Below are positions 4,829 to 20,281 of a stretch of DNA of 64,000 nt, one piece after another. The first letter of the stretch is position 1; each line of letters opens with the position of its first letter. The position numbers and the translations under genes were made by a program. This stretch comes from Candidatus Omnitrophota bacterium (GTDB lineage Bacteria > Omnitrophota > Gorgyraeia > Zapsychrales > Zapsychraceae): the NCBI GenBank assembly GCA_018812705.1, contig JAHJCZ010000097.1:840-64839 (forward strand), in the 5' to 3' direction. The notes beneath the pieces were generated by a model, which made no database searches, was not told the origin of the DNA, and saw nothing but the letters and a program-made list of their open reading frames with translations.

Positions 4829-5068
4829 TTATGGCATCCAAATCGCGTTCAGCGGGATAGGCTCGTAAAAATACGTATCCAGCTGCTGCCCAATCGACCC
4901 TCCCGACCTTAACAAATCATGATGCGCCTGTCTTCTTGCAACAGGGTCCCTTGAAACCCATCCCATGATCTGTACCATGCTCCACAGCATCAAAAGAATA
5001 ATGAACATACAGAAGGTAAATTCTATCAAAACCTGACCCTTAGATCTTTTTGCCTTTTTTAAAAACAT
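4829..5068 (-). CDS. TadE-like minor pseudopilin (79 aa)
   Basis: N-terminal KRSKGQVLIEFTFCMFIILLML matches the TadE/Flp-type prepilin motif (G then xxxxE[FY]) followed by a hydrophobic helix. It lies between two other pseudopilin-like genes. Confidence 0.55.
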   Translation of the reverse strand: MFLKKAKRSKGQVLIEFTFCMFIILLMLWSMVQIMGWVSRDPVARRQAHHDLLRSGGSIGQQLDTYFYEPIPLNAIWMP

Positions 5069-5101
5069 TGACTTTTTCCCTTTTTTCTCTGTTCAAAGTA
5101 C

Positions 5102-6439
5102 TTATCGCATAAATTCAACGTACGGTTCGTCGGTTGTATCAGTAACCCATCTACGTCCACGTCTATCCGCTATTCTGCTCCTAATAAAAATGTACCTGTC
5201 TCTAATTGCCATGCAGGTAAGAGGCGTATTCCCGCCAAAACATTCTTGCCGCATGTTAACACAAACCTCAATGGGATTTGGCACGCTAGTATCGTCCCCA
5301 ACAAAAGGCGGGACCGTTCGATCAGCATTACAGAACCTCCCGGGTGTAAAATTGCTTAACAGTACCTCCCTTTGAATAATATCAACCTGATCTTTCTTTT
5401 TGGCTGTTCTAATAAACTGTCTTCCTGGAGAGGTCGCATAAAGACGTCCTTCTTCTATTAATGCATAAGTGCCTTCTTCTCCCGGCCTTTGCCCTCTTAA
5501 GAATGTAAAGACCTCCGTATCTCTTTGAAGACCTGGCCGTTCACCGGGGTCCCCTTCTTCCCAAGTACCATCAATATCTCCAGCACCATAATCAATAGCA
5601 TGTATTGAAGTAACAACTCCGTTTGCATCTGAAGTTACGCTGTAAACCGTTTCTTCCATGTAATCTCCATCAACATCATAAGACACCTGTGATGTTTCCA
5701 TCGCAACGTTTCCAGGAAGAAGCGTTCCTCCTCCAGCTTTAGTTTCAAAAGCATATCTGATTTTCCATTGCCAAGAGAAATTGGACCTCATTGCTACTGG
5801 CACCTCGCTCGAGTCTCCATCTCTGTCAAGATCAAAACACGCGTCACAGCCTGCATCCCAATCATCTATGCCAGGGTGATTAGGAATTTTCTCGTAAACA
5901 GCAACGCAGCCAACAATAGCGCCCGATGCTAATCTTGCACAATTGTCTTGCCATGTAGGATGTCCATCGACTAACCCTCCAATGTTTGTAAAACTGGCGC
6001 TTGAAAAAGGAAAATGTTGACCATTTATCCAATAGTCCGTAACTGATAAACTGAAATTTTCATTGGAATCAATGTTAAGAAATAGGTTTCTGCTGTGCGT
6101 GCCTGATCCTGACAGCATGTAAGGAACTCTATCGACTGTACCATATTTCGCGCTTGAGGCAGTTAGCCTGTCTTCGATCAAAACAACCGCAGCCGAATTT
6201 CTTGAAGCATTATTATCGCCATGACTTCCCATCTGTCCTGAAGTGTACATGTACGACATTCTCATTGCCATTCTCATTGCCTTCAAAGCCTGGCCCTGCT
6301 GATATCCATAACCAAGCGCGCTTCGAACAATAAGACCCATCGTAAAAATAAATATTGATCCAAAAACCGCCAATTCCATTGCGGTTTGGCCCGATTCTTT
6401 GACCAGCTTAAAATAACGTTTCTTTCTAAATAAGTTCAT
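5102..6439 (-). CDS. TadE/TadF-like pseudopilin with large C-terminal extracellular domain (445 aa)
   Basis: N-terminus ESGQTAMELAVFGSIFIFTMGLIV fits a TadE-like prepilin. The C-terminal domain is rich in Asp/Gly motifs (DLDRDGDSSE, DVDGDYMEE, GAGDIDGTWEEGDPGE) suggestive of Ca binding. Confidence 0.6.
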   Translation of the reverse strand: MNLFRKKRYFKLVKESGQTAMELAVFGSIFIFTMGLIVRSALGYGYQQGQALKAMRMAMRMSYMYTSGQMGSHGDNNASRNSAAVVLIEDRLTASSAKYGTVDRVPYMLSGSGTHSRNLFLNIDSNENFSLSVTDYWINGQHFPFSSASFTNIGGLVDGHPTWQDNCARLASGAIVGCVAVYEKIPNHPGIDDWDAGCDACFDLDRDGDSSEVPVAMRSNFSWQWKIRYAFETKAGGGTLLPGNVAMETSQVSYDVDGDYMEETVYSVTSDANGVVTSIHAIDYGAGDIDGTWEEGDPGERPGLQRDTEVFTFLRGQRPGEEGTYALIEEGRLYATSPGRQFIRTAKKKDQVDIIQREVLLSNFTPGRFCNADRTVPPFVGDDTSVPNPIEVCVNMRQECFGGNTPLTCMAIRDRYIFIRSRIADRRGRRWVTDTTDEPYVEFMR

Positions 6440-6483
6440 ATCGCCCCTAAAACCATCAGCTTCTGAAAACCTTGAAAATAAAC

Positions 6484-6798
6484 TTAATATGCCCCAGAGG
6501 AAACATATCCAGATTTTGTTTCAACAACATTTGTCATATCTCTTCGAGATGTCCACCAACCTTCAGATGTGTTTAAAGAAATGATCTGCGTGTCCGTGTT
6601 TGAAACTATCCTATGGACGACCATTGTGTTTCCCGTTCTAGGATCATACTGTTCTCCTAGTTCGTCAACTGCAGTTTTCCATCTTCCCTGCAATCCTCTT
6701 TTAAAATAATTACCTATTGATAAAAAAGCTGCAAGAATAACTGTCATCAAGACCAGAAACTCCATTGATGTTTGCCCTTTTTTTATTAGTTTAAACAT
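6484..6798 (-). CDS. Flp-family type IVb pilin, extended (104 aa)
   Basis: KKGQTSMEFLVLMTVILAAFLS carries the Flp prepilin motif (G/xxxxE[YF] plus hydrophobic helix). It shares the YFKRGLQGRWKTAVDELGEQ block with its paralogues. Confidence 0.7.
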   Translation of the reverse strand: MFKLIKKGQTSMEFLVLMTVILAAFLSIGNYFKRGLQGRWKTAVDELGEQYDPRTGNTMVVHRIVSNTDTQIISLNTSEGWWTSRRDMTNVVETKSGYVSSGAY

Positions 6799-6831
6799 AA
6801 TATCTCCTGTTTCAATAGCAACTTCACTTTT

Positions 6832-7182
6832 TTAATCGTTCTCTTGAAAACCTAAACCTGTTTCAGTCGTTGATTCAGAATGCATCCGATCATTATAGTA
6901 ATGAGTTACGACGCCAGCACTTTCTCCTCTTGTTGTTTCTGTTGCCGCGTCAACATCAACAAAAGCATTTACCATGAACCCTTCTTCTATGTCAAAAATC
7001 TGATCCGCATTCCTTTGAGTTCCAATTTGATCGGCAACTGTCTTTATCATTCCCTGCGTGCCTCTTTTAAGGAACGTCCCCATATTAAAAAATATAACCG
7101 TAACCATTCCGACTATTAATGAGTACTCCAGAATGCTTTGAGCCTTATTATTTTTCCAAAATTTCAAATTTACCTTAAACAT
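6832..7182 (-). CDS. Flp-family pilin paralogue, extended (116 aa)
   Basis: NNKAQSILEYSLIVGMVTVIFF Flp motif, plus the conserved FLKRGTQGMIKTVADQIGTQ block. Confidence 0.7.
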   Translation of the reverse strand: MFKVNLKFWKNNKAQSILEYSLIVGMVTVIFFNMGTFLKRGTQGMIKTVADQIGTQRNADQIFDIEEGFMVNAFVDVDAATETTRGESAGVVTHYYNDRMHSESTTETGLGFQEND

Positions 7183-7203
7183 TTTTCCCTCTAAACTAGC
7201 GTA

Positions 7204-7587
7204 CTATTCATATTCCCTATCTGCTTCCCTTGGAGGCTTTGTCACGCTTGTTGTCATTATTCTTGAAAGATCATCATATTCCATTCTGTAAACGCCGCTA
7301 GTGCCTCCCTCGGCAAGAGAAGTTCTTGATCTAAGGCTACGATAAGTTTCTGAATCAGTGTTCTGATAATAAGGCTCATAATGAAAGAATATGTTGCCAT
7401 TGAAGAAACCTGCTGATTGATTTCTTGTGAGCCTGACCATTGAATCTCTGGCATCATAAATTCTTCCCTGAACCACCCTTTGAAAATATGTACTCATTGC
7501 TGTTATTACTCCGATAGCAACAAAAAAAACTATAACATATTCCCCCATAACCGCCTGAGCTTTATTATTTTTAATAATTCTTAGCAT
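7204..7587 (-). CDS. Flp-family pilin paralogue, extended (127 aa)
   Basis: NNKAQAVMGEYVIVFFVAIGVITAM Flp motif. It shares YEPYYQNTDSETY with the 8281..8643 paralogue. Confidence 0.65.
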   Translation of the reverse strand: MLRIIKNNKAQAVMGEYVIVFFVAIGVITAMSTYFQRVVQGRIYDARDSMVRLTRNQSAGFFNGNIFFHYEPYYQNTDSETYRSLRSRTSLAEGGTSGVYRMEYDDLSRIMTTSVTKPPREADREYE

Positions 7588-7780
7588 AAAAAATGCTTCC
7601 CCTTAAAAATTTTAATAGTCATATAATAAGTATACATTATTTTTATCTGATTGAATAGAGTAGGTATCTTTTTTTTGGATTGATAACTTTAACAGTACCA
7701 TAAACTTAAAGAAATCCCTTTTATTGTTTTTGCACAATTTAACAAAAAACCAACTCAAAAATAAAAAACACAGAATCTTT

Positions 7781-7836
7781 TTTTTACGCAAAAAAAAATC
7801 CGGCTTGCCGAAAAACTATTTCTCGACAAACCGGAT
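7781..7836 (-). terminator. Rho-independent terminator on the minus strand between the flp sub-operons
   Basis: Read on the minus strand: ATCCGGTTTG, 19-nt loop, CAAGCCGGAT (10-bp stem with one G-U), then TTTTTTTT. It sits just downstream of the pilin gene ending at 7881. Confidence 0.6.
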
Positions 7837-7880
7837 CTATGTTTCAAACTAAGAACCTATTTTTTACAAAACACCGTTTA

Positions 7881-8249
7881 TTAGCTTCCCCAATATTCTT
7901 GCTCAATATTAGCAATTCTTGAAGTTCCTTGGGTAACTGTTGCTTCGTCGTTAAGTAAAGATGAAGTTACAACGCCGCCGATATTTGTATCAGACGTATA
8001 ACTTACAGTTCTTACTGTTTTTTGTACGTTTGTGTTTCCAGGGGAGAATTGCTCTCCGATATCATCAGCCGCACCTTTTAAGCGACCCTGAATACCTCTC
8101 TTAATGTAGACCTGAATAGAGACAAGAGCACCAATGATAATAATTATCAAAATTGCATATTCTAGTGTGCTCTGGCCTTTCTTTCTTCTTCTATTTAAAT
8201 ATTCAAACATTGTTTTAGCCTCCTTAATTTTACCTCTTCTAAAGAGCAC
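7881..8249 (-). CDS. Flp-family pilin paralogue (true start probably the internal Met at about 8210, MFEYLNRRRKKGQSTLEY)
   Basis: KKGQSTLEYAILIIIIIGALVS Flp motif and the IKRGIQGRLKGAADDIGEQFSP conserved block. Confidence 0.7.
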   Translation of the reverse strand: MLFRRGKIKEAKTMFEYLNRRRKKGQSTLEYAILIIIIIGALVSIQVYIKRGIQGRLKGAADDIGEQFSPGNTNVQKTVRTVSYTSDTNIGGVVTSSLLNDEATVTQGTSRIANIEQEYWGS

Positions 8250-8280
8250 TTCTTATGTTACTAACTGATCAGGTCTACTA

Positions 8281-8643
8281 TTAAAGACCGTTTTGAATAC
8301 CAGCAACCGATACGTCATAAGAAGTTGTCTGACGACCACCCGCTGTTCTTGTTCTAGTAGAATTTTCACCTTTCAAAATAGCATCTGCATCATAACTTTC
8401 GGTCATAGTTTCATCCCGAATAATGTTATAAGTAGTTGATAGATAATAAGGTTCATATTGTACTGTGTTGCCTAAACCATTAGTTTGTGTAGCAAGGTGC
8501 TGTGCGGCATCACGAACTCTTGCCTGCAATGCTCTTTGAGCATACGTTTGCATGGCAATAATACCAGCAACAACCAGAGATATCAAAATTGCATACTCGG
8601 CTGTGTTTTGCGCTTTTTTATTTTTAATCAATTTTCTAAGCAT
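8281..8643 (-). CDS. Flp-family pilin paralogue, extended (120 aa)
   Basis: NKKAQNTAEYAILISLVVAGIIAM Flp motif. Confidence 0.7.
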   Translation of the reverse strand: MLRKLIKNKKAQNTAEYAILISLVVAGIIAMQTYAQRALQARVRDAAQHLATQTNGLGNTVQYEPYYLSTTYNIIRDETMTESYDADAILKGENSTRTRTAGGRQTTSYDVSVAGIQNGL

Positions 8644-8702
8644 TGATTTTACCTCCTAATTTTAACTTCTCCAAATAACTGGATTCCTTCTTGTTCTCCT
8701 GA

Positions 8703-8933
8703 TTAAGGGGTACTGTTAGCAGCAGGTCTTGATGCAGCTAATCTGTCTGCCATGTCTTCCATTCCGTCTGTTCCAGAGTTGATAGTTGTGTTAAAAGCAT
8801 TCTGGAATGGCCCGCCTGGTCCTAAGAATATAATGAGCGCTGCTAAAACAGCAGCAATCAAAATAATGTACTCAACTGTGCTCTGGCCTCTTTTCTTTTT
8901 GCCAGATGTTTTATGAATCATCCTTTTAAGCAT
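8703..8933 (-). CDS. Flp-family pilin (76 aa)
   Basis: KKRGQSTVEYIILIAAVLAALIIF Flp motif. Confidence 0.7.
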   Translation of the reverse strand: MLKRMIHKTSGKKKRGQSTVEYIILIAAVLAALIIFLGPGGPFQNAFNTTINSGTDGMEDMADRLAASRPAANSTP

Positions 8934-9076
8934 TATTTATCCTCCTTCGATAATAACAATCCCTGTTACTAAACAAGGGCTTTTGCTTAATTAAGCCTAA
9001 AAATACACTAATTTTTAAGCCTTACGAAAGAATTGACTCAGAAATAATTTTCTGATCGTCTTTCCTCGCGTAAATG

Positions 9077-9268
9077 TTATTGTGATGCTTTGAATTCTTC
9101 TTGTATTACCTGCTGGGTAGCCTGAACTGACCTATACACGTAGGTACTCATAGCGACAACCGCTACGGAAATAAGAGCTGCGACCATGGCATATTCAATT
9201 AGATTTTGACCTTTATGATTCCAATTTTCCACTTTTTTGTTCCTCGCCATACCGCAACTACCTAACAT
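9077..9268 (-). CDS. Flp-family pilin (about 57 aa from the internal Met at about 9250)
   Basis: MARNKKVENWNHKGQNLIEYAMVAALISVAVVAM; classic short Flp. Confidence 0.7.
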   Translation of the reverse strand: MLGSCGMARNKKVENWNHKGQNLIEYAMVAALISVAVVAMSTYVYRSVQATQQVIQEEFKASQ

Positions 9269-9655: not shown

Positions 9656-11671
9656 CTAAGCTTTTATTTTTTGAGCACTTACAAAAAAACCCTTGCCCTC
9701 CTTTGTTACCAGATGCCTATCGTTTACTCTATTAATAGCAAATTCCAAAACCTCGAGAAAATTATACCGCTCGGGAATCATAATTGTCACAATTAATCGG
9801 TTGGGATGTTCCTGTACAAAGCCCTTTAATCCATAAAATATTGGCACCATAGTTTTTATGTCAACTGCTCCTTTTTGCTTAGGAAAATATTTATCTAAAC
9901 AATACTCATGAAGGGTTAGGATGTAGTCATCAAAAATATCTCCAAGATTCTCAAATCTTCTTTCTACAAAATCCCCAACATGGTCTTCGTGTTGGCTTTT
10001 AATAGGCTCTAGCTTGCTAATAGCATTGCTTGTTTCTTCCTTATTATAGCTCTGCTTAAATGCGCTTGGCCAACGATTTAAATAATTTGCAATAATAGTT
10101 TCAGCTTTTTCTGCAAACATATTAGTTAAAAGGGCTATTTGAGGCATCTTGTTCTTTTCTTTACCTAAAAACACCAATTTTAAAGACTTTTCCTCATTAA
10201 AATGCTTAGGAATGTTAAAAACATCATTCAAAAAGCTCGAAAATGGAACATTTTTTTCAGAATAGTACAAAATACTGTCTCTTTGGCTGTCATAATAGGA
10301 AAAATCGACAAAATCGACAAATTTTTGAATTAATTCCTTAAAAATTTCCTGATAAGGCCTAAAACCAACAATAAACGAGCGCTTAATTGAAGGAATAAGC
10401 GTAAATTCGGTAATTATGTCTTGATTTTCACTTAAAACTTCAATCTTTCGTATTTTTCTGCCAGGAATGTCAAAACAAGCAGCAACTAGCATTGAAAGAT
10501 CCTTTTTGTTAATGCCTTTTTCCCTTAAAACATCCATTACTAGGCACTCATTGTTGCTGATCAATGTTTTTGAAAGAATCGTCATTGCGCTACTTACAGA
10601 CGCAAACAATTCCTTTTGAACTAAATCTCTCCAAAGAGACCTCAGTTGAGCATCAAGTACAATGCTAGTAGAATCCTCAAAGATGACATTAAAAGCACAG
10701 ATTTTGCTTAAAGCCTGTTCCTTTTCATTAAGATATTCCAACTGCAGTTGATTGGAAAAGTCAATCTTCTGAGTCCACCCAAAAAGATTTTCTCTTCCTG
10801 GATACCCTTTAAAACCATTTAATCTCCATAAGGCGTCATTCTTTGAATTTTCAATAGTCTCAACCGATTGCATATTAAACGCTTTAAGGAATAGCAAACT
10901 TGAACAAATATTATTAAAATTCTCTAAACCCATTCCTTTTGAATTTTTTCCAAAAAGATCACCCAGAAGGTTTTCACCCGACATGTCGATCTGAGCAGCT
11001 TTTAAGAACACAACTCCCGCATTATCATACAAGTTACTATTTTTTCTTTCTTTCCCTTTATTTTCTCTCGCAATTTTTACATCATAAAGGAATTGTTCCT
11101 CGTCGAAGAATTTAGGACCAACAGGAACAACATATTCCTTCTGATATTGACTTGATAGAGCTGATTGCTCTTCTTTAATTGCTTTGTTTTCTTCTGCAAA
11201 TACTCTCTCTTCATTCTTCACTCTTTGTTCATCATAAAAGATCTTGCCCTTGCGTTTTCTTCTCTCGTGCTCCTGAAGATCAATAGAGAGCTTTTCAAGA
11301 GAAAAGACTGCCGCTTCTTTTTTTATCTCAAGGAGTTCATTAGGAACACCTTTTTTCTGTTCCTCGTTTTCTGCGGAAACCTTTTTATCAAAAGTAAAAC
11401 CAAGGCTTGAAATGCTATCTAACAATTGTTGTTTCTTTTCTGGCGGGATCTGAAATTTTTTAGAGGTTGCTTTTTTCTGGACTCTTCTTCCTACTGAACT
11501 GCTTAGCATAGTATTTTTCAAAACAGAATTCACCGAAGACTTTGATACCTTAATTTCAAATTTCTTGCTTGTCTGCTCTGATAATTGTCGACAGCTAATT
11601 AAGGGCTCTTCCTTCTTTTTGTTTATAATAAAATCAAACACTTCTTTTTTTAGCTTGTGTACTACTCCCAT
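9656..11671 (-). CDS. Hypothetical 671-aa Lys/Glu-rich protein with an HTH-like N-terminus, embedded in the Tad locus
   Basis: Long ORF with an N-terminal PLISCRQLSEQTSKKFEIKVSKSSVNSVLKN helix-turn-helix-like segment and K/E-rich low-complexity coiled-coil regions. It has no TM segments and I recognise no family. Confidence 0.45.
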   Translation of the reverse strand: MGVVHKLKKEVFDFIINKKKEEPLISCRQLSEQTSKKFEIKVSKSSVNSVLKNTMLSSSVGRRVQKKATSKKFQIPPEKKQQLLDSISSLGFTFDKKVSAENEEQKKGVPNELLEIKKEAAVFSLEKLSIDLQEHERRKRKGKIFYDEQRVKNEERVFAEENKAIKEEQSALSSQYQKEYVVPVGPKFFDEEQFLYDVKIARENKGKERKNSNLYDNAGVVFLKAAQIDMSGENLLGDLFGKNSKGMGLENFNNICSSLLFLKAFNMQSVETIENSKNDALWRLNGFKGYPGRENLFGWTQKIDFSNQLQLEYLNEKEQALSKICAFNVIFEDSTSIVLDAQLRSLWRDLVQKELFASVSSAMTILSKTLISNNECLVMDVLREKGINKKDLSMLVAACFDIPGRKIRKIEVLSENQDIITEFTLIPSIKRSFIVGFRPYQEIFKELIQKFVDFVDFSYYDSQRDSILYYSEKNVPFSSFLNDVFNIPKHFNEEKSLKLVFLGKEKNKMPQIALLTNMFAEKAETIIANYLNRWPSAFKQSYNKEETSNAISKLEPIKSQHEDHVGDFVERRFENLGDIFDDYILTLHEYCLDKYFPKQKGAVDIKTMVPIFYGLKGFVQEHPNRLIVTIMIPERYNFLEVLEFAINRVNDRHLVTKEGKGFFVSAQKIKA

Positions 11672-11824: not shown

Positions 11825-12169
11825 TTAGCTTGAGATCTCTATCTGATCACCAATAGAAATCCCTGCGCTGAGGATAGCGCTAGAGGGAAGCTCTACAACA
11901 TAGCTTGATCTAAAATATATACGGCTAAGCTGAAAAGGCCGAATATCGCTGACTAAACCAACAACAACATTCTCTTTGCTGACAAAAACAACGTCAATAG
12001 CAAATTTCATAAAAAACATATGAATAGAATTACACCTTGTAATAACAAGAGCCTCTCCTTCTGAAAAAGATTCACGATTCAACAATCCAACCATTCTAGT
12101 TAAAAAACTATCTGCGACCTTGGCCTTATCGGCAATTATATTCTGTTTTGTTTTGTTAAGTATTTTCAA
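11825..12169 (-). CDS. DUF192 (COG1430) family protein
   Basis: GLLNRESFSEGEALVITRCNSIHMFFMKFAIDVVFVSKENVVVG matches the DUF192 core. Confidence 0.6.
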   Translation of the reverse strand: MKILNKTKQNIIADKAKVADSFLTRMVGLLNRESFSEGEALVITRCNSIHMFFMKFAIDVVFVSKENVVVGLVSDIRPFQLSRIYFRSSYVVELPSSAILSAGISIGDQIEISS

Positions 12170-12187: not shown

Positions 12188-12505
12188 CTACTCTGCGGGT
12201 TTTGGTGGCAGAGCATTAGTTTTATCATTTTTCTCTGTAGCAGGCGCTTGATCTTTTATCGCCTCAGGAGCCAGTATCACAACCTCAGGAACTTCTATTT
12301 TCTCTTCAGGATTAACATAAATAGTCCGTTTATCAAAAATACTCTTTTCAATTTTTAACCCCCGAGTAACAAAATCATCGAAGCTTGTAGGGACATACCC
12401 TGTGGCTTCAAAATCTCCAATAACCCTGCCGTACGCATCGATCCCATTTGATTGTAAAGAAAAATATCTTTTAATATCAATTGGTGGTCTTCGTCCATTC
12501 CGCAA
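12188..12505 (-). pseudogene. Frameshifted C-terminal segment of the TadA/CpaF ATPase
   Basis: The overlapping frame encodes IDAYGRVIGDFEATGYVPTSFDDFVTRGL, which matches the conserved CpaF C-terminus. The main frame instead ends in a non-homologous tail. A 1-nt indel in the AAA run near 12440-12450 would join the two frames. Confidence 0.55.
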
Positions 12506-14484
12506 GTTTCAGAAATCTGTGTGACCTTTCGAGTTCCATCTGAAAAACGATTGATCTGAACGATAATATCAATCGCTGAGGCGATCATTTCATTAATAGC
12601 TCTAACAGGTAATTCAATACCACTTAAAAGAATCATAGAGTGCATACGAGTAACAACATCTCTTGTAGTATTTGCGTGCAATGTGGTCAAGGACCCGTCG
12701 TGCCCTGTATTCATAGCCTGAAGCATGTCCAAAACCTCAGGTCCGCGACACTCCCCGATAACTATGCGGTCAGGTCGCATTCTCAAACTATTAGTAAACA
12801 AATCCCTAATAGTAACTTCACCTTTTCCTTCAATATTTCTAGGTCGAGATTCCAGTCTACCACAATGGCTCTTTTTTAGCCTCAACTCAGCAGCATCCTC
12901 AATAGTGATAATCCTTTCATTATCAGGGATAAACTCGGAGACAACATTCAGTAATGTCGTTTTACCAGCACCTGTTCCTCCAGAAACAATAATATTCTTG
13001 CGGCCAATAACAGCACAATTTAAAAACAAAACCATCTCTTTTGTCACGCTGTGAAACTTGTTGAGCAAGTCATCCGTATTAAGTCTTTCAGCTCCAAACT
13101 TTCTGATAGTTATCATTGGCCCTCTCAACGAAAGTGGCGGAATAATAGCATTAATTCTTGATCCATCCGGCAAACGAGCGTCAACCATCGGAGTCGACTC
13201 ATCAATTCTTCTTCCTAAAGGAGCAATTATTCTGTCAATAATCGCCCTCATCTTGTCATCCGAAACAAAACTATAATCTGTAAGGACTAGTTTTCCCTTC
13301 TTCTCAACATATATCTCATCTCTACAATTTACCATAATATCAGTTATATCTTGATCCGCTAATAGGTCTTCTAATGGCCCTAAACCTAAGGCTTCATTAA
13401 CGATATCTCTAACCAATCGCACTCTCTCTTCGTGGGAAGATATCTTTCCGCCTGCTTCTTCCGTAAGAAGCGTCCCGACAACTCCTTCCGCCATTTTTTT
13501 AACTTTATGGATGGATTCCGGGTCACTTAAAGCCTCAAGAGAAATGCCTTCCTTGTTCAACCTGTCAACCAGCTTGAGATGAATTTTTCTCTTTAAAATG
13601 CTAATCTCATCTTCCTGAGAAGTATATGCTTTGCCTGAAGGAGCCGTACCCATTTGCTGAGCAATACCATATTTAGCCCAAAATGCTCCTGGACTAGGAA
13701 GATCTTCTTTGTTTCTTATCTTCTCAACATCCATTGCAGGGACAAAATTACTTTCTTTGCGGAAAGAATCTACTAGCTTAATAAAAGATTCTCCAACATG
13801 GCTCTTTGGATTATCAATAACACAAGGAATCCCCCTGTTAAGAGCAATGCCCACTGCCTTTCCATCGGATGGAACATGTCCAAAAATCTCACAAGTCAGA
13901 GCAGACTTAACTTCTTGCCAAGCAACACTTCCACGACTTTCAGACCTGTTCAAAAGCAGCTTGATCATTTTCATCGGAAACTGCAGGCTCTGCAGAACAT
14001 CCAAGCACCACTTTATTTGATAAACAGCCAAAATATCCGGCGTTGCCACTAATAAAATAAGGTTAGAATAGTCAAATACTGTAATAAGCGGTTCATGGAA
14101 AGCTTTCCCTGCATCAATAAGAATATAGTCATATACTTCAGATATTTTTCTAAGATAGGGTTTTATATTATCTGGCGTGATCAAACTGATTTGACGGGTA
14201 TTCTTAACTGCCGCCATAAAGTCCAATCCACAAGTATGTCGTGCAGAAAATCTTCTAATAACGGCATGATCTGTTACTGCGTCTATTTGCGAAAGAACGT
14301 CAACGATCGAGTTCTTTGGAGACAGGTTCATTGTTCGCGCCATATCCTGTCCTGCCTGAAAATCCATGTCGATCAAAAGCACTTTATATTTAGCAAGAGC
14401 CAGGGCTGTGGCCATATTAACAGCGACGAAAGTTTTGCCAACCCCACCTTTGTTACTAAAAATAGTTATTATTTTTGCACTCAT
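12355..14484 (-). CDS. Fused TadZ/CpaE-like (ParA/MinD-fold) ATPase and TadA/CpaF secretion ATPase; the C-terminus continues in another frame
   Basis: N-terminal IITIFSNKGGVGKTFVAVNMATALA deviant Walker A of the ParA/MinD family. The C-terminal half has CpaF hallmarks: Walker A GGTGAGKTTLLNV, IITIEDAAEL, GHDGSLTTLHANT, RFSDGTRKVTQISE. Confidence 0.8.
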   Translation of the reverse strand: MSAKIITIFSNKGGVGKTFVAVNMATALALAKYKVLLIDMDFQAGQDMARTMNLSPKNSIVDVLSQIDAVTDHAVIRRFSARHTCGLDFMAAVKNTRQISLITPDNIKPYLRKISEVYDYILIDAGKAFHEPLITVFDYSNLILLVATPDILAVYQIKWCLDVLQSLQFPMKMIKLLLNRSESRGSVAWQEVKSALTCEIFGHVPSDGKAVGIALNRGIPCVIDNPKSHVGESFIKLVDSFRKESNFVPAMDVEKIRNKEDLPSPGAFWAKYGIAQQMGTAPSGKAYTSQEDEISILKRKIHLKLVDRLNKEGISLEALSDPESIHKVKKMAEGVVGTLLTEEAGGKISSHEERVRLVRDIVNEALGLGPLEDLLADQDITDIMVNCRDEIYVEKKGKLVLTDYSFVSDDKMRAIIDRIIAPLGRRIDESTPMVDARLPDGSRINAIIPPLSLRGPMITIRKFGAERLNTDDLLNKFHSVTKEMVLFLNCAVIGRKNIIVSGGTGAGKTTLLNVVSEFIPDNERIITIEDAAELRLKKSHCGRLESRPRNIEGKGEVTIRDLFTNSLRMRPDRIVIGECRGPEVLDMLQAMNTGHDGSLTTLHANTTRDVVTRMHSMILLSGIELPVRAINEMIASAIDIIVQINRFSDGTRKVTQISETCGMDEDHQLILKDIFLYNQMGSMRTAGLLEILKPQGMSLQASMILLLGG

Positions 14485-14540
14485 TTTTGCACCAGGGAAA
14501 CAACTTTTATCTTTTTACAAATTTTTAATAGGCGTGTCAA

Positions 14541-16193
14541 TTATTTCTTAAAGCTGTAAACAATTGGAACAGTAATATTCAATTCCTGAAGGTCTACATC
14601 TGAAGGAAACCCTGCGTACGGCGCAATTCTTTTGGCCGCTCTTAGGGCACTTTCATCCATAACCTCATGTCCTGATGATTCTTGAATTAAGGCATATGCA
14701 AGTGTTCCGTCTTTTAATATAAGCATATTCATCCTAACAGTTCCTTCCCATCCATATCTTTTTGCCTCTGGAGGGTAGAGAATTGTTTTGGAAATCTGCT
14801 TCTGAACATTTCTTACATACTCAGTCATGTTTTTTGGTATTCCCAAGTAATAAGGAACAGCCGCGGAAGACGAGACTTTTTGCTTATATATTGCAGTTGT
14901 CTTATATTCTTCAACCGTTTCCTCTTTTTCCTCTTCAGGATTGTTACGGTTTCTTTCTAATATAGTTGGCGTCATTGAGATAACTAGCTCTTTATCTGTA
15001 TCTGAAGGATTCGTTCCATGAGACCTGAAAAGCATCCCAATAATCGGTATTTGCCCCATAAAAGGAACTATTCTCGTGCTGGAACCTCTGTTCTCTTTAA
15101 TTAAACCAGCAAGAACCATCGTCTGCCTATCATTTAAAAGAACGTGAGTTGTTGTTGTTTCTGTAAAGAAAGATGTTTCGTTTCCTGTTCCAGAAGCGAC
15201 ATCACTGATCTCAACGTTTAACTCAATATCAATTTTATCTTTTATTACTTCCGGCGTTATCGTTAACCCAATACCATACTCTTTAAAAGAAACATTTTCT
15301 TGTGTTCCTTCTGCGGAGGAGGTTGTTGTCTTAATAGGAATTTCCCCACCAACTAAAAAACTCGCTTCTTCACCGCTCATAACGACTACTTTTGGTCTTG
15401 AAAGAACCCTTGCTTCCCCTTTTTCTAATAAAGCTTTAACAGTTGCAGTTAAAGCTGACGTTCTGCTAAAATCTCCAATCTTAAAAAAGTCACCTATTGA
15501 TCCGTCCATCGCAGGCATGTTTTCAGGATAGGTCAAAGATACGCCACTCGACCCAGAGGACCAATCTATACCTAAACTTTTTGTAAGCGTGGTATTTAAT
15601 TCTGTCATTTGCATGTCCACTTGAATAAGATCCTGAATTTCTTCCTTCCTTACAAGTTTCATAACAAGATCAGCATATCCATCCAATATTGAATCAAGCA
15701 TCTCTTCGTTTTTCTCTGAAACATCCCCAGTGACAAATATCTTACCTTCTCTTTTATTAGGCTCTAATTTTATTCCCTCAATTCTTGCCTTTTTTAAAAG
15801 TGTGTCGATCCTTTGAATAGCAGTATCAAGCATTCCCATGTCCGCAGCTTGAACATTAACGAAAACCATTCTTTTTCCTGCATCATCCCAAACAAAAAGT
15901 ATAGTTTGTCCAGGTTGTTTCGCAATAAGCAAAATCTCCTGGTCATCTGCTTCAACAATATCAGCAATATCTGGATTTGTAATAGAAAGCCTTGTCATGT
16001 TTGAGACCTTAGCTATAGTCAGTTCTCCGACAACCATATAAATCTCGTTTTCATTCACTGAATCAAGATTTTTATAAATGTCATCCAATGCATTAGCTTG
16101 TGCCAATGAAGATGCGAAAAGAATGACTACTGCCGTAACAATAGCTCCTTTCACTGCGAACTTTATTTTTTCAAAAATTCTTTTATTATCCAT
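14541..16193 (-). CDS. RcpA/CpaC-type Flp pilus secretin fused to a C-terminal TonB-C domain
   Basis: Signal peptide; Pilus_form_N-like block (IYMVVGELTIAKVSNMTRLSITNPDIADIV...TILFVWDDAG); secretin core; C-terminal YPPEAKRYGWEGTVRMNMLILKDGTLAYALIQESSGHEVMDESALRAAKRIAPYAGFP, a clear TonB C-terminal domain signature. Confidence 0.75.
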   Translation of the reverse strand: MDNKRIFEKIKFAVKGAIVTAVVILFASSLAQANALDDIYKNLDSVNENEIYMVVGELTIAKVSNMTRLSITNPDIADIVEADDQEILLIAKQPGQTILFVWDDAGKRMVFVNVQAADMGMLDTAIQRIDTLLKKARIEGIKLEPNKREGKIFVTGDVSEKNEEMLDSILDGYADLVMKLVRKEEIQDLIQVDMQMTELNTTLTKSLGIDWSSGSSGVSLTYPENMPAMDGSIGDFFKIGDFSRTSALTATVKALLEKGEARVLSRPKVVVMSGEEASFLVGGEIPIKTTTSSAEGTQENVSFKEYGIGLTITPEVIKDKIDIELNVEISDVASGTGNETSFFTETTTTHVLLNDRQTMVLAGLIKENRGSSTRIVPFMGQIPIIGMLFRSHGTNPSDTDKELVISMTPTILERNRNNPEEEKEETVEEYKTTAIYKQKVSSSAAVPYYLGIPKNMTEYVRNVQKQISKTILYPPEAKRYGWEGTVRMNMLILKDGTLAYALIQESSGHEVMDESALRAAKRIAPYAGFPSDVDLQELNITVPIVYSFKK

Positions 16194-16431
16194 GGTTAAT
16201 ATCTCTTACTTTCTTTAAAACAAGATTTCTTGTTTGGATTGATTTGTAATTAAAAACAATTAAGAACCTTGAATCAAAGACGATCGTCCCTTTGGCTCTA
16301 AGATGTCACATAAAACACAACATAGAAACAAATCTCAAACTATAATAGAAAAGAAACACCAGCAACAATCTGCAAAGTAACTCGCGAAAGAATCAAACAA
16401 AAAAGCACTCTACAGCATCAATACTAAACTT

Positions 16432-17277
16432 CTAAAAATTAGACTCTGCTCCTGATTTAAAAATCTGTATATAAGGACGAACTTCGTCTTCCTCTTCATC
16501 TGCTTCAAAGATATTCGCCTTCTTTTGCGGGACCATCAATTCTGTTCCTTGGTGATCCATAACATATTCAGCTAAAGTATCCCAAGATGCAATTTGAAGC
16601 AACTGCAATCCACCGTCTGTTGGTGGCCTTAAAGACAGTTGTAATTTTCCATTTGCCTGAGCAAATGCAATCAATCCAGACTCTTCCGGACTAATCGCAA
16701 CTGTTATGTTAAGGGACCTGGCCTTTTGCTGTGCTTCATATGCAGGAGCGCTTCCAAGAGGCTTAAAATTAGTTCCAACTGCCAGCACTTGAATATTCTG
16801 GAATAAAACGGTAGTCACATCTTTTAAAGCTTTTGAGTCTTCCGAGTCATCAGGTATCTTTATTTCACCAATAATATCAACAAAGTCGCCTGGATTAATA
16901 AGACCTCCAACCGCTGAAAGAGAATCAACTAAAATAGTAACTGCTCTTTTTCCAGGAGGTGTTCTTACTGAAAAAGAATCCATCTGAACAACTGGCTGCG
17001 CTTTTTCAGTGGTAGCTTGTGTTGCTGCTCCTGGCTTATATTGGCTTTGCTTTGTCTCCACCTTCTTGATTTCTTCACGCTGTCTTTTGATCTCGCTTCT
17101 TAAAACCTCTATTTCTTTAGCAAAACCAGCATTTTGTTTGCCATAATCTCTTGCCAAAGCTTTTGTTTGAGCCTTAATATTGTTTTGGACATATTGGCTA
17201 GTTAAAAACGCAGCAACCAAGCCAAGCCCTATCGCGATAAGAATAATGACAAACTGTTTTTTGTTTTCAATGTTCAT
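16432..17277 (-). CDS. cpaB: Flp pilus assembly protein CpaB/RcpC. The start is probably the internal Met with a GGAGGG RBS.
   Basis: N-terminal TM (FVIILIAIGLGLVAAFL). RAVTILVDSLSAVGGLINPGDFVDIIG matches the CpaB C-terminal domain. Confidence 0.7.
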   Translation of the reverse strand: MNIENKKQFVIILIAIGLGLVAAFLTSQYVQNNIKAQTKALARDYGKQNAGFAKEIEVLRSEIKRQREEIKKVETKQSQYKPGAATQATTEKAQPVVQMDSFSVRTPPGKRAVTILVDSLSAVGGLINPGDFVDIIGEIKIPDDSEDSKALKDVTTVLFQNIQVLAVGTNFKPLGSAPAYEAQQKARSLNITVAISPEESGLIAFAQANGKLQLSLRPPTDGGLQLLQIASWDTLAEYVMDHQGTELMVPQKKANIFEADEEEDEVRPYIQIFKSGAESNF

Positions 17278-17390
17278 TGTACCCTCCGCACTGTTACCCA
17301 AAAACAATTTAAAAAACCACTCGCTCTTACAATACAAGAATTTTTATTTTTGGAAATAACAGAAGCTTGTTTTTCAATTGGCCAAAAAAT

Positions 17391-18326
17391 TTATTTTAAA
17401 AGATCGTAGTTAACCTCAACCTTGATCTCTTTCTGCAATGCTTCAAGTTTATCTAACAGCTTTTGTTGCTGCTTTAATAGAGTTTGATTCTGAATGATAT
17501 CATTCTTTATTTCTTCAAACTCCAGCTGCCTTCCTTCTCTTTTGTCTTCTAGTTTTACAATATAAAATTCTCCGGTTGGCGACTCAACAGCTTCACTTAT
17601 TTCTCCTTTTGCCATCTCCATAAGTACTGGGGCCATAGATTCAAAGGGAACCGAATCTATAAAACCAACATCACCTCCGTTTGGTGCAGTTTGACTAATT
17701 GAATTCTCTTTAGCCTTTGCTGCAAAATCTGCGCCATTTGCAAGCTCAGCAACTAATGCATCAGCCAAGGCTTTTTCTTTAACAACTATCTCTTTCACAT
17801 GAAACTGAGGTGGCTGGATCAACTGTTCTTTGTTCTCATTGTAGAAAGCTTGAGCCTCTTCGTCTGTGACTACAATTCCTTCTACCAATTTTTGCGCAGC
17901 TTCTCTAACTATAAGAGTTCTTCTGAATTCAGCAACAGCATCTTTAATATCTTTGCTGTTTGCGATACCTGCTTTTTCTGCATCAATAACCAAAAGCTGC
18001 TGGCGAACAAGTTCATCGATGACCATCTTTCTTGCTTCTAGACTTGCTACATCAAAATCTGGAACAACTTCTTTTAATGCTTTTACTCTTTCTTTAAACT
18101 CTTCTCTTGTGATGGTCCAATTACCAACTCTTGCGATCGTCTCAGGGGTCATTACCACCTGATCCGCTGCAGGTTTTGCAGCATCAACAACTGGCGCATC
18201 TGCAGATTTCTCCGAGTCACCTTTAAAATATTCTTTAATAGCTGAAATTTGTTCACACCCTAAAAAGAAAACAACACAAACAAGGCATATGGCAAGTAAA
18301 TTAAAACTTTTACGCATTTTTTCCAC
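17391..18326 (-). CDS. Parvulin-type peptidyl-prolyl isomerase lipoprotein (SurA/PrsA-like)
   Basis: Signal plus lipobox FLGC. PpiC rotamase signature FHVKEIVV...GADFAAKAKENS...GGDVGF. Confidence 0.7.
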   Translation of the reverse strand: MEKMRKSFNLLAICLVCVVFFLGCEQISAIKEYFKGDSEKSADAPVVDAAKPAADQVVMTPETIARVGNWTITREEFKERVKALKEVVPDFDVASLEARKMVIDELVRQQLLVIDAEKAGIANSKDIKDAVAEFRRTLIVREAAQKLVEGIVVTDEEAQAFYNENKEQLIQPPQFHVKEIVVKEKALADALVAELANGADFAAKAKENSISQTAPNGGDVGFIDSVPFESMAPVLMEMAKGEISEAVESPTGEFYIVKLEDKREGRQLEFEEIKNDIIQNQTLLKQQQKLLDKLEALQKEIKVEVNYDLLK

Positions 18327-18471
18327 GTGACAATCCCTCCCTTTAAATAATTATAAGACATTTTTAATAATATATTAACAGTATACATTTCCTAAAAACA
18401 AAACTCAAGGCAATTTCCCAAAATTTAACATTAAAATATAATTAAATTTCTTATAAAGAATGTGCCTGCTG

Positions 18472-19455
18472 TCAAAGCATTTCTTTGCACAGTTGTATCT
18501 CTAAAAGCAGCTCTTTTCTTGTAATATGAATTTTTTCTTTTGCAAAATCTGTAAGATCAAGGCCTTTAACTATTTCCCAGTCTGTACCATCAGATCGAAT
18601 GGGATAACTAAAGATTATACCCTTGTCTACATCATAGCTCCCATCAGAACAAACTGCGACAGAGAAGAACTCGCCTGCTTTTGTTGGCGTTGTTAACATT
18701 TTTACAGTATCCACTACCGCATTTGCTGCGGAAGCTGCCGACGACATCCCTCTCGCTTTAATTATCGCAGCCCCTCTTGTTTGCACTGTTTCAATAAACG
18801 CTCCTTTTAGCCAGGCTTTGTCAGCAATAACTTCTTCCACTTTTTTGTCTCCGATCTTAGCATTAAAAAAATCCGGATACTGCGTTGAAGAATGGTTCCC
18901 CCAGATAGCGATATTTTTTACACTGCTAACATCAACCCCCGCCTTTAAAGCAAGCTGAGCTGCTGCTCTATTTTGATCAAGCATTGTTAGAGCAAAGAAA
19001 TTTTTATCATCAAGCTTTGTTGCAGCAGCTTTTGCAATGTACGCATTTGTGTTGCATGGATTTCCAACGACCAAAACCTTGCAGGTTGATTTTGCGTTTT
19101 CAGACAAACTCTTTCCTTGGGCTGTAAAGATTGATCCGTTTATTTTTAATAATTCGCTTCGTTCCATTCCGGCTTTTCTTGGCATGCTTCCGATCAGCAA
19201 TGCCCAATCTGCGTCTCTAAAGACAACATCTGGGTCACTTGCTGCTTCCAGTGATCTTAAAAGAGGGAACGCGCAATCCTGTAGCTCCATCTTAACGCCC
19301 TCTAATCTATCTAAAGCAGCGTCGACCTCTAGCATTCTTAAATGTATCTCCATGTTTTCTCCGAACATCTCCCCAGACGCAATGCGAAACAGCAGCGAAT
19401 ATCCTATTGCCCCCGCAGCGCCCGTCACCGCAACATTAACCTGTTTTTTTACCAT
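18472..19455 (-). CDS. mdh: Malate dehydrogenase (NAD), LDH-like cytosolic type
   Basis: VAVTGAAGAIGYSLLFRIASGEMFG Rossmann motif; VLVVGNPCNTNAYIA; IWGNHSSTQYPD. Confidence 0.85.
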   Translation of the reverse strand: MVKKQVNVAVTGAAGAIGYSLLFRIASGEMFGENMEIHLRMLEVDAALDRLEGVKMELQDCAFPLLRSLEAASDPDVVFRDADWALLIGSMPRKAGMERSELLKINGSIFTAQGKSLSENAKSTCKVLVVGNPCNTNAYIAKAAATKLDDKNFFALTMLDQNRAAAQLALKAGVDVSSVKNIAIWGNHSSTQYPDFFNAKIGDKKVEEVIADKAWLKGAFIETVQTRGAAIIKARGMSSAASAANAVVDTVKMLTTPTKAGEFFSVAVCSDGSYDVDKGIIFSYPIRSDGTDWEIVKGLDLTDFAKEKIHITRKELLLEIQLCKEML

Positions 19456-19457
19456 AA

Positions 19458-20249: not shown

Positions 20250-20281
20250 ATTACTCGTAATTAAAGGCTATTCACTCTTGG

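What the first reader, a model, noticed from the sequence alone, without database searches (positions are those of the whole stretch)
14541..16193. Pilus secretin fused to a TonB C-terminal domain
The 550-aa protein has the Flp-pilus secretin architecture (signal, pilus-formation N domain, secretin core), but its last roughly 90 residues are an unmistakable TonB-C fold signature (YPxxAxxxGxEGTVxxxxxIxxDGTxxxxxIxxSSGxxxxDxxALxAxK). A TonB-C module on a secretin could anchor the channel to peptidoglycan or couple it to an ExbBD-like motor. I do not recall this fusion being described for RcpA/CpaC.
Basis: partly seen in the sequence, partly recalled or inferred. Interest (0 to 1): 0.65.

Follow-up and report, generated by a model that had tools for sequence, protein, structure and literature searches.

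The report
Tad pilus secretin carrying TonB-type domain
The outer-membrane channel of the adhesion (Tad) pilus in this Omnitrophota bacterium really does end in a domain borrowed from the TonB/TolA family; the fusion is real, strongly conserved across one clade whose named members are all Omnitrophota, and I found no paper describing it, but what the extra domain binds is still unknown.

Summary
Confirmed. One uninterrupted 550-aa ORF on the minus strand (14541-16193) encodes a signal peptide, a pilus N-domain (PF13629), a secretin core (PF00263), a variable linker of about 40 aa and a TonB_C domain (PF03544, E 6e-15). The domain model has pLDDT 96-98 and its top 25 PDB fold matches are all TonB or TolA C-terminal domains.

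The fusion is not an assembly artefact. 79 of the 80 best species-representative loci and 260 of 268 fetched homologues have it in one ORF, down to 29% identity. Twenty carry two tandem copies. The TonB_C core is the best-conserved part of the protein. Every member named by a source except one, probably mis-binned, is Omnitrophota. Beyond a sharp score gap, relatives are plain CpaC without TonB_C.

The gene sits in a conserved Tad locus: rcpC, this secretin, a tadZ-tadA fusion, DUF192, an unknown gene, and Flp pilins.

TonB's motor-coupling N-terminal helix is absent and no ExbBD gene lies nearby, so coupling to a motor is unlikely. My best inference is that the domain is a tethered periplasmic docking or anchoring module. 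It occupies the position of the pilotin-binding tail of canonical RcpA. Its partner is unknown.

It is a new variant of a known kind. Databases call it "TonB family protein", and I found no paper describing it.

The parts
14541..16193 (-). Whole gene: Tad/Flp secretin (RcpA/CpaC type) with a C-terminal TonB_C domain, 550 aa plus stop codon
16095..16193 (-). Signal peptide, residues 1-33 (AQA/NA cleavage motif; no lipobox, no SHLS motif)
   Evidence: Read directly from the sequence
15852..16049 (-). Pilus-formation N-domain (PF13629), residues 49-114. In P. aeruginosa this is the domain that docks RcpC.
   Evidence: PMC12307814
14958..15431 (-). Secretin core (PF00263), residues 255-412. Best solved relative is RcpA 8odn, E 1e-25.
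14835..14957 (-). Variable linker enriched in E/A/S/K/P, residues 413-453. It is the least conserved region (0.16) and, measured between local domain-model hits, spans 17-354 aa across the family. Residues 415-448 have pLDDT below 50 in the full-length model.
14553..14834 (-). TonB/TolA-type C-terminal domain, residues 454-547: leading helix followed by helix-strand-strand-helix-strand. pLDDT is 96-98 and it is the most conserved region of the protein (0.63).
16432..17337 (-). rcpC/cpaB (PF16976), immediately upstream; present in 80 of 80 related loci
12188..14484 (-). tadZ/cpaE (ParA-like) fused to tadA/cpaF (T2SSE ATPase); present in 77 of 80 loci. In the window the last ~65 codons are shifted into another frame by a 1-nt deletion in an A-run near 12440-12460.
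11825..12169 (-). DUF192 protein, present in 64 of 80 loci
9656..11671 (-). 671-aa protein with no significant Pfam domain; its family is conserved in 60 of 80 loci
4829..9268 (-). Nine genes with Flp/TadE-type class-III signal N-termini: seven small pilin-like proteins of 63-127 aa, a 445-aa TadG-like protein and a 79-aa TadE-like protein

Best explanation
This is the outer-membrane secretin of the Tad (Flp, type IVc) pilus machine of an Omnitrophota bacterium. The window's closest relative in the genome collection is Omnitrophica WOR_2 RIFOXYA2_FULL_38_17. After Sec export the protein should oligomerise like RcpA/CpaC into a gated channel, with its N-domain docking the RcpC ring encoded just upstream. 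What differs is the C-terminus. Canonical RcpA ends in a short unstructured tail whose last four residues bind the TPR lipoprotein pilotin TadD. This lineage instead has a flexible acidic, Ala/Pro-rich tether ending in one, or sometimes two, TonB/TolA-type globular domains.

If the oligomer resembles RcpA (13-14 subunits), that many domains would hang in the periplasm around the base of the channel. I infer that they act as docking or anchoring modules. Each would capture an exposed beta-strand of a partner by strand addition, as TonB and TolA domains do, or would hold the cell wall. In this way they would position, assemble or stabilise the secretin. They are not a link to a proton-motive-force motor.

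Shown: the architecture, the fold, the genuineness of the fusion, its restriction to one clade, strong purifying selection on the domain, the Tad locus context, and the absence of TonB's motor-coupling elements. Inferred: periplasmic location of the C-terminus, by homology with RcpA. Also inferred: the docking function, replacement of pilotin docking, and the identity of the partner, which is unknown.
For: Architecture and fold:
- Pfam and NCBIfam hits.
- Sequence matches in the PDB to RcpA (8odn, E 1e-25) and to the H. pylori TonB C-terminal domain (6sly, E 1.2e-5).
- The AlphaFold model of residues 415-550 has pLDDT 96-98 over the domain. Its top 25 Foldseek PDB matches are all TonB C-terminal domains or TolA domain III.

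The fusion is genuine:
- The top 120 database hits all carry the three domains.
- All 80 best GTDB species-representative loci match through residue 546 or beyond, and 79 of 80 do so in a single ORF.
- 260 of 268 fetched proteins carry secretin plus TonB_C, and 20 carry tandem TonB_C. The 8 that lack one or other module are all short (261-418 aa) and look truncated.
- The architecture persists down to 29% identity.

Discrete clade:
- A search seeded with a divergent member shows every hit of 200 bits or more with PF03544. Below that comes a gap to 141 bits or less, where every hit is plain CpaC from other phyla.
- Every member named by a source is Omnitrophota, with one probably mis-binned exception.

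Selection:
- The TonB_C core is the most conserved region (0.63, against 0.60 for the secretin core, 0.53 for the N-domain and 0.16 for the linker). Its last, edge strand is near-invariant.

Context:
- The locus rcpC, secretin, tadZ-tadA, DUF192, unknown gene and Flp pilins is conserved.
- No TPR/TadD-like family is conserved within +-10 kb.

Literature:
- The RcpA C-terminal tail binds TadD (PMC10499894).
- TonB and TolA C-terminal domains bind targets by beta-strand addition, and motor coupling goes through the N-terminal helix (PMC12204202).
- The TonB-like ExeB protein binds the periplasmic domains of a secretin in trans (PMC4098917).
Against: No partner has been identified, and no TonB-box-like motif was tested.

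The full-length model gives no confident placement of the domain relative to the channel (pTM 0.33).

TadD, ExbBD and TonB-dependent receptors could be encoded elsewhere in these genomes. Only +-10 kb per locus and one 64-kb window were examined. TadB/TadC are also missing from the neighbourhood, so absence from the locus is weak evidence of absence from the genome.

Long linkers (up to 354 aa) and tandem domains argue for reaching something distant, such as the cell wall or the inner-membrane complex. That fits poorly with a pilotin-like partner sitting at the barrel.

Nothing here is experimental.
Confidence: 0.55

Rival explanations
1. Cell-wall anchor. The TonB_C domains bind peptidoglycan directly and pin the secretin to the sacculus. 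This would play the role that AMIN domains of PilQ, TsaP (LysM) or the ExeA/GspA-peptidoglycan complex play for other secretins.
For: The variable tether (median 42 aa, up to 354 aa) and the tandem domains suit reaching a layer below the outer membrane. No peptidoglycan-binding component or hydrolase is known for Tad systems (PMC12307814). Other secretins depend on peptidoglycan-linked factors (PMC4098917). From my own knowledge, unverified here: peptidoglycan binding by the TonB C-terminus has been proposed.
Against: No recognised peptidoglycan-binding signature (LysM, OmpA_C, AMIN, SPOR) was detected in the protein. The documented activity of TonB and TolA C-terminal domains is protein beta-strand addition. 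Nothing was tested here.
Confidence: 0.2
2. Substrate or partner capture for secretion. The domain ring recognises a strand on Tad components or on cargo, such as the pseudopilin-like giant protein encoded downstream or the minor pilins. It would guide them to the channel or gate it.
For: A giant ORF with a pseudopilin-like N-terminus lies directly downstream of the pilin genes. A preprint reports that Tad or secretion cassettes, and in two cases 'TonB C-terminal domain' genes, flank Omnitrophota giant genes (10.64898/2026.06.07.730766).
Against: The secretin C-terminus lies outside the barrel in solved secretins, so it is poorly placed to contact material in the lumen. The giant-ORF relative was found in only 21 of 80 loci, although many loci are cut at contig ends. 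There is no motif evidence.
Confidence: 0.1
3. Motor coupling. The TonB_C links the secretin to an ExbBD/TolQR-like proton-driven motor that energises gating or pilus dynamics.
For: The domain belongs to the family used by force transducers. A motor-anchored partner displaying a TonB-box-like strand could in principle be grabbed by it.
Against: Coupling to the motor needs the N-terminal transmembrane helix with its SHLS motif, and here there is only a signal peptide. No ExbB/ExbD/TolQ/TolR family is conserved within +-10 kb of 80 loci or present in the window. The Tad system already has its own ATPase.
Confidence: 0.07
4. Artefact: two neighbouring genes (a secretin and a TonB-like gene) joined by a sequencing or assembly error, or a decaying remnant domain without function.
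For: The neighbouring cpaF gene in this same window does carry a 1-nt homopolymer frameshift relative to its 89%-identical relative, so the assembly is not error-free. One related locus (L070) has the TonB_C part in a separate overlapping ORF.
Against: The same in-frame architecture occurs in 79 of 80 independent species-level genomes and in 260 of 268 proteins from many sources and assemblers. The domain is the most conserved part of the protein. The split in L070 consists of two overlapping ORFs, as a frameshift inside one gene would produce.
Confidence: 0.01

Closest known systems
RcpA/CpaC, the Tad (Flp, type IVc) pilus secretin (P. aeruginosa RcpA, PDB 8odn)
   Same: Signal peptide, PF13629 N-domain and PF00263 secretin core. 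It is the best solved match (E 1e-25). The locus also has rcpC/cpaB, tadZ/tadA and Flp pilins.
   Different: Canonical RcpA is about 416 aa and ends in a short unstructured tail whose last 4 residues bind the TPR pilotin TadD (PMC10499894). Here about 140 extra residues form a linker plus a TonB_C domain, and no TadD-like gene is conserved nearby. Plain CpaC relatives are separated from this clade by a large score gap.
TonB and TolA C-terminal domains (H. pylori TonB 6sly/5lw8, FusB 7zc8, TolA III 6s3w/1lr0)
   Same: Same fold and signature motifs (YP, EG-V, DG, SSG). The top 25 PDB fold matches are all of this kind.
   Different: TonB and TolA are inner-membrane anchored, with an N-terminal helix that plugs into ExbBD or TolQR. 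Here the domain is the C-terminal appendage of an outer-membrane channel, with no such helix. Its polarity in the envelope is therefore reversed.
ExeB/GspB, the 'TonB-like' assembly factor of type II secretion
   Same: A TonB-related periplasmic protein that contacts a secretin (the N0N1 domains of ExeD) and is required for secretin assembly (PMC4098917). It is a precedent for a functional link between TonB-like modules and secretins.
   Different: ExeB is a separate inner-membrane protein that works with the peptidoglycan-binding ATPase ExeA in a type II secretion system. It is not fused to the secretin, and its similarity to TonB is weak.
Accessory anchoring modules of other secretins (AMIN domains of PilQ, TsaP-LysM ring, S-domain with pilotins)
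   Same: Extra domains or partner proteins that position and stabilise a secretin in the envelope. This is a comparison from general knowledge; the S-domain and pilotin part is from PMC10499894.
   Different: Different folds. AMIN domains are N-terminal. None of these is a TonB_C domain.
STN domain (PF07660, 'Secretin and TonB N-terminus short domain')
   Same: It is the textbook link between the words 'secretin' and 'TonB', so it invites confusion.
   Different: STN is an N-terminal domain shared by some secretins and TonB-dependent receptors, not by TonB itself. It was not detected here. The domain here is the C-terminal domain of TonB proper.
GltG/GltJ of the Myxococcus gliding machine
   Same: These proteins appear together with TonB in the Agl-Glt gliding literature (paper list). 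From my own knowledge, not read or tested here, they carry TonB_C-type domains reused outside nutrient uptake to connect envelope layers.
   Different: They are inner-membrane proteins driven by a TolQR-like motor, not outer-membrane channels.

Membership tests
Tad/Flp pilus secretin (RcpA/CpaC) | C-terminal secretin domain (PF00263) | tested here: met
   E 8e-39, residues 255-412; RcpA 8odn E 1e-25
Tad/Flp pilus secretin (RcpA/CpaC) | N-terminal pilus-formation domain (PF13629) rather than the N0/STN type | tested here: met
   E 2.4e-12, residues 49-114; no STN or Secretin_N hit
Tad/Flp pilus secretin (RcpA/CpaC) | Encoded in a tad locus with rcpC/cpaB, tadZ/cpaE, tadA/cpaF and Flp-type pilins | tested here: met
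   synteny in 59-80 of 80 loci. TadB/TadC (T2SSF) were not found in the window or in the conserved neighbourhood.
Tad/Flp pilus secretin (RcpA/CpaC) | Short C-terminal tail that binds the TPR lipoprotein pilotin TadD | tested here: not met
   The C-terminus is a ~40-aa linker plus a ~95-aa TonB_C domain. No TadD-like family lies within +-10 kb in 80 loci. A TadD gene elsewhere in the genome cannot be excluded.
Tad/Flp pilus secretin (RcpA/CpaC) | Forms a 13-14-mer gated outer-membrane channel | not testable with these tools
   Only monomer prediction was available
TonB/TolA force transducers | Globular C-terminal domain of the TonB_C fold | tested here: met
   PF03544 E 5.9e-15, TIGR01352 E 6.3e-14; all top PDB fold matches are TonB or TolA
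TonB/TolA force transducers | N-terminal transmembrane helix with SHLS motif that docks in ExbBD/TolQR | tested here: not met
   The N-terminus is a cleavable signal peptide with no His and no S-x-H motif. The definition is from PMC12204202.
TonB/TolA force transducers | Periplasm-spanning linker between membrane anchor and C-terminal domain | tested here: inconclusive
   A variable linker enriched in E/A/S/K/P precedes the domain, but it connects to an outer-membrane barrel, not to an inner-membrane helix
TonB/TolA force transducers | Genomic association with exbB/exbD or tolQ/tolR | tested here: not met
   None is present in the 64-kb window and none is among the families conserved within +-10 kb of 80 loci. 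Whole genomes were not searched.
TonB/TolA force transducers | Binds a TonB-box or TolA-box strand of a partner by beta-strand addition | not testable with these tools
   The last strand is near-invariant (P543 and V545 invariant; Y546 and S547 at 90% or more), which is compatible but not a test

The most novel reading that the evidence does not exclude
An outer-membrane channel that reaches inward with TonB-type hands, reversing the usual TonB/TolA polarity. A ring of tethered TonB_C domains on the Tad secretin would grab a TonB-box-like strand on an inner-membrane or periplasmic partner, or on the pseudopilin-like giant protein. That would provide pilotin-independent assembly, trans-envelope alignment or gating. 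It would be a lineage-defining adaptation of the attachment and predation apparatus of ultra-small Omnitrophota.
Probability: 0.2. Interest if true: 0.7.

Novelty: new variant of a known kind. Interest (0 to 1): 0.45.

Why it matters
Omnitrophota are a widespread, almost uncultured phylum of ultra-small bacteria thought to live as predators or parasites. Their Tad pilus is the main candidate for host attachment (PMC10066038). The channel of that machine carries a lineage-wide extra domain that is at least as conserved as the channel itself. This points to a different solution for assembling or anchoring a secretin, possibly one that does not use the usual pilotin.

The finding also has a practical side. 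Automated pipelines name these proteins "TonB family protein", so genome surveys can miscount them as iron or nutrient-uptake components and overlook the secretin. A recent preprint lists "TonB C-terminal domain" genes next to Tad cassettes without making the connection.

Finally, it gives structural biologists a natural test case of a TonB_C domain operating from the outer-membrane side.

Tried and rejected
- **Plus-strand reading of the coordinates:** full of stop codons; the gene is on the minus strand.
- **Assembly artefact or gene merger:** rejected by comparative data, even though the adjacent cpaF does carry a frameshift.
- **ExbB/ExbD/TonB, TonB-dependent receptors, TadD or TadB/C in the window:** none found. 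None is among the conserved neighbourhood families of 80 loci either.
- **Fusion outside Omnitrophota:** two name look-ups and a second homology search seeded with the most divergent member found only Omnitrophota labels. One 'Hydrothermarchaeota' label is probably mis-binned. Plain CpaC begins after a clear score gap.
- **Full-length model:** gave no confident inter-domain arrangement (pTM 0.33), so it says nothing about where the domain docks.
- **Literature:** None found a paper describing the secretin-TonB_C architecture, and one search was swamped by the hormone secretin.
- **Giant downstream ORF:** no Pfam domain.
- **Not attempted:** multimer modelling with RcpC or the pilins (chimeric or multi-chain input is not accepted) and whole-genome surveys (only +-10 kb per locus is retrievable).
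Full report
**Observation.** The reported coordinates hold one ORF on the minus strand, 14541-16193, starting with ATG and encoding 550 aa. The plus-strand reading is full of stops.

Pfam finds three domains above their curated cut-offs:
- T2SS-T3SS_pil_N at residues 49-114 (E 2.4e-12);
- Secretin at residues 255-412 (E 8e-39);
- TonB_C at residues 472-547 (E 5.9e-15, 55.9 bits against a cut-off of 24.6).

NCBIfam adds tonB_Cterm TIGR01352 (E 6.3e-14) and partial matches to GspD, PilQ and MshL secretins. The N-terminus is a typical Sec signal peptide ending AQA/NA, with no lipobox.

**Is the fusion real?** The junction region shows nothing suspicious in the DNA, but comparison is the stronger test.
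- A search of 5.8 billion protein clusters returned 431 relatives, and all 120 listed carry PF13629 + PF00263 + PF03544.
- A scan of one genome per species (GTDB representatives) found 450 relatives. The best 80 loci all match the query through residue 546 or beyond. In 79 of them my own ORF calling puts N-domain, secretin and TonB_C in one ORF.
- The exception, L070, has two overlapping ORFs, as a frameshift inside one gene would produce.
- An exhaustive HMMER search of 1.84 billion cluster representatives gave 296 hits at E <= 1e-30. The best 150, down to 29% identity, still align through the TonB_C.
- With local HMMs of the three modules, 260 of 268 fetched proteins have secretin plus TonB_C, and 20 have two tandem TonB_C domains. 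The 8 lacking one or other module are all short (261-418 aa) and look truncated.

An assembly artefact is excluded. The neighbouring cpaF gene in this window does carry a 1-nt deletion in an A-run relative to its close relative L001, which shifts its last ~65 codons into another frame. The assembly is therefore not error-free, but that error does not touch the secretin.

**Who has it.** The nearest genome is Omnitrophica WOR_2 bacterium RIFOXYA2_FULL_38_17, at 89% identity. Every family member that a source names is Candidatus Omnitrophota/Omnitrophica. The single exception is labelled Hydrothermarchaeota and is probably a mis-binned contig. Some MAG sets use the generic label 'uncultured Planctomycetales'.

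A second homology search, seeded with the most divergent member (P0260), shows a clean boundary. All hits of 200 bits or more carry PF03544. Scores then jump down to 141 bits or less, where every hit is a plain CpaC (PF13629 + PF00263, with or without BON) from other lineages such as Pyrinomonadaceae, Alcaligenaceae, Dongiaceae and Salmonella. The fusion therefore marks one discrete clade of Tad secretins.

**The domain itself.** AlphaFold2 on residues 415-550, with a 37-sequence alignment, gives pLDDT 96-98 over the domain. The elements are helix-helix-strand-strand-helix-strand. Foldseek against the PDB returns TonB C-terminal domains and TolA domain III as the top 25 matches:
- H. pylori TonB 6sly (E 1.9e-6, TM 0.80 on the target);
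- FusB;
- TonB bound to TbpA, FoxA, BtuB and FhuA;
- TolA domain III.

Sequence search of the PDB agrees, with 6sly at E 1.2e-5.

Across 231 full-length members plus the window, the TonB_C core is the most conserved region. Mean major-residue frequency is 0.63 there, 0.60 for the secretin core, 0.53 for the N-domain and 0.16 for the linker. The linker, measured between the local domain-model hits, varies from 17 to 354 aa (median 42) and is enriched in E, A, S, K and P. The last beta-strand is near-invariant: P543 and V545 are invariant, and Y546 and S547 are conserved at 90% or more. From general knowledge, this is the strand that pairs with the TonB box in TonB-receptor complexes.

**Context.** All the following genes are on the minus strand:
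- rcpC/cpaB (16432-17337);
- this secretin;
- a ParA-like tadZ/cpaE fused to the tadA/cpaF ATPase (12188-14484);
- DUF192;
- a 671-aa protein without a significant Pfam domain;
- nine genes with Flp/TadE-type class-III signal N-termini, including a 445-aa TadG-like protein;
- a very large ORF that runs off the left end of the window.

The order is conserved in the 80 related loci: rcpC 80, secretin 80, tadZ-tadA 77, DUF192 64, the 671-aa family 60, pilins 59, the 445-aa family 43-46. Upstream neighbours are conserved too: a SurA-like PPIase in 71 loci, mdh in 61 and gyrA in 42. The locus lies about 15 kb from dnaA and from the GC-skew switch.

No TPR/TadD-like, T2SSF (TadB/C) or ExbB/ExbD-like family is conserved within +-10 kb. 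None is in the rest of the window, which holds housekeeping genes.

**Mechanism.** Three points from the literature frame the reading.
- TonB and TolA have three parts: an N-terminal transmembrane helix (SHLS motif) that sits in the ExbBD/TolQR motor, a periplasm-spanning linker, and a C-terminal domain that binds its target by beta-strand addition (PMC12204202).
- In P. aeruginosa RcpA, the unstructured C-terminal tail binds the TPR lipoprotein pilotin TadD through its last four residues. This is essential for secretin assembly and localisation (PMC10499894).
- RcpC forms the periplasmic ring that docks the RcpA N-domain (PMC12307814).

The protein here lacks TonB's motor-coupling helix. It places the TonB_C exactly where RcpA has its pilotin-binding tail.

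The best-supported reading is that the domain is a tethered periplasmic docking or anchoring module. It would help assemble, position or stabilise the secretin by strand addition to an unidentified partner. Direct binding to the cell wall is the main alternative. The long, variable tethers and tandem copies suggest a target some distance below the outer membrane.

A precedent for TonB-like modules working with secretins in trans is ExeB/GspB, which binds the N0N1 domains of the ExeD secretin (PMC4098917).

Every functional statement here is inference. The full-length model has pTM 0.33 and does not place the domain.

**Comparison and novelty.** The protein is a Tad secretin by core domains and locus, but it fails the family's C-terminal feature of a short tail that docks TadD. 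It has the TonB_C fold but fails the defining N-terminal feature of TonB/TolA. The PGAP name 'TonB family protein' is therefore misleading.

I found no paper describing the architecture.
- The main Omnitrophota study discusses RcpA phylogeny and never mentions TonB (PMC10066038).
- The evolutionary survey of TonB and TolA mentions neither secretins nor Omnitrophota.
- A search for the two Pfam accessions together returned nothing.
- A 2026 preprint notes 'TonB C-terminal domain' genes beside giant genes without linking them to the secretin.

The searchable library is incomplete, and domain-architecture databases surely list the combination. I therefore rate it a new variant of a known kind: real, lineage-defining and functionally unexplained, but built from two well-known modules.

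**Scores.** Interest is 0.45. A pilus specialist would find the C-terminal TonB_C unexpected and its conservation striking. However, accessory domains on secretins are common and no mechanism is demonstrated. The most novel reading not excluded is a reversed-polarity 'TonB hand' on an outer-membrane channel that gives pilotin-independent assembly or trans-envelope capture. I give it probability of about 0.2 and interest of about 0.7 if true.

Noticed in passing
window 12188-12505 and 12355-14484 (-), break near 12440-12460: The cpaF part of the tadZ-tadA fusion gene is frameshifted. A 1-nt deletion in an A-run relative to L001 moves the last ~65 codons, including the conserved CpaF C-terminus GRVIGDFEATGYVPTSFDDF, into the overlapping 105-aa ORF. 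It is either a homopolymer sequencing error or a recent pseudogene.
   Followed up: yes
window 12188-14484 (-); 77 of 80 related loci: The ParA/MinD-like TadZ/CpaE is fused to the TadA/CpaF ATPase in one polypeptide of about 720-775 aa across the clade. This is a second lineage-wide gene fusion in the same operon.
   Followed up: partly
window 3-4730 (-): A stop-free frame of at least 1576 aa runs off the left end of the window. It has no Pfam domain, and GC is 42-47% against about 37% elsewhere. Its N-terminus looks like a pseudopilin class-III signal (KGQVAIILIIMTAVALIF) followed by further hydrophobic segments. It is probably one of the Omnitrophota giant proteins, here directly downstream of the Tad pilin genes.
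   Followed up: partly
window 4829-9268 (-): Nine consecutive genes have Flp/TadE-type N-termini (G/Q-S/T-x-x-E-Y/F followed by a hydrophobic helix). Related loci carry about seven such paralogues each (399 in 59 loci).
   Followed up: partly
window 9656-11671 (-): A 671-aa protein has no significant Pfam domain (only a weak HTH_Tnp hit below the cut-off) and no obvious membrane segments. Its family is conserved between DUF192 and the pilins in 60 of 80 loci. Function is unknown.
   Followed up: partly
window (whole) and +-10 kb of L001-L080: No T2SSF platform genes (TadB/TadC), no prepilin peptidase and no TadD-like gene were recognised in the conserved neighbourhood, so the Tad locus is incomplete by the canonical parts list. 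They may lie elsewhere in the genome or be too divergent to recognise.
   Followed up: partly
P0049, P0085, P0089, P0091, P0094, P0121-P0123, P0244, P0250 and others: Twenty family members carry two tandem TonB_C domains. Some have linkers of more than 150 aa rich in Pro, Ala and Glu, reminiscent of the periplasm-spanning segment of TonB/TolA.
   Followed up: partly
L070:871-3169: This is the only one of 80 loci where the TonB_C part sits in a separate ORF. The two ORFs overlap (871-2796 and 2630-3169), which suggests a frameshift in that MAG rather than a true split gene.
   Followed up: no
window 17391-18326 (-): A SurA-like periplasmic PPIase/chaperone (SurA_N + Rotamase) lies immediately upstream of rcpC and is syntenic in 71 of 80 loci. 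Neighbouring housekeeping genes (mdh, CN-hydrolase) are equally syntenic, so a functional link is uncertain.
   Followed up: no
window 23957-32899: This is the replication-origin region: gyrA, gyrB, dnaN and dnaA on the minus strand, then a ~1-kb gap (31919-32899) before yidC and parA/parB on the plus strand. GC skew changes sign at about 31-32 kb. The Tad locus sits about 15 kb from dnaA. Seymour et al. give similarly low genome coordinates (12382-29832) for the V. archaeovorus Tad locus.
   Followed up: partly
window 48456-48608 (+): A 6S RNA (RF00013, 55 bits) lies between pheT and an MgsA-type ATPase gene.
   Followed up: no
P0271 (RLG57178.1): A member of the fused secretin family is deposited as 'Candidatus Hydrothermarchaeota archaeon'. 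A secretin in an archaeon is implausible, so the contig is probably mis-binned.
   Followed up: no
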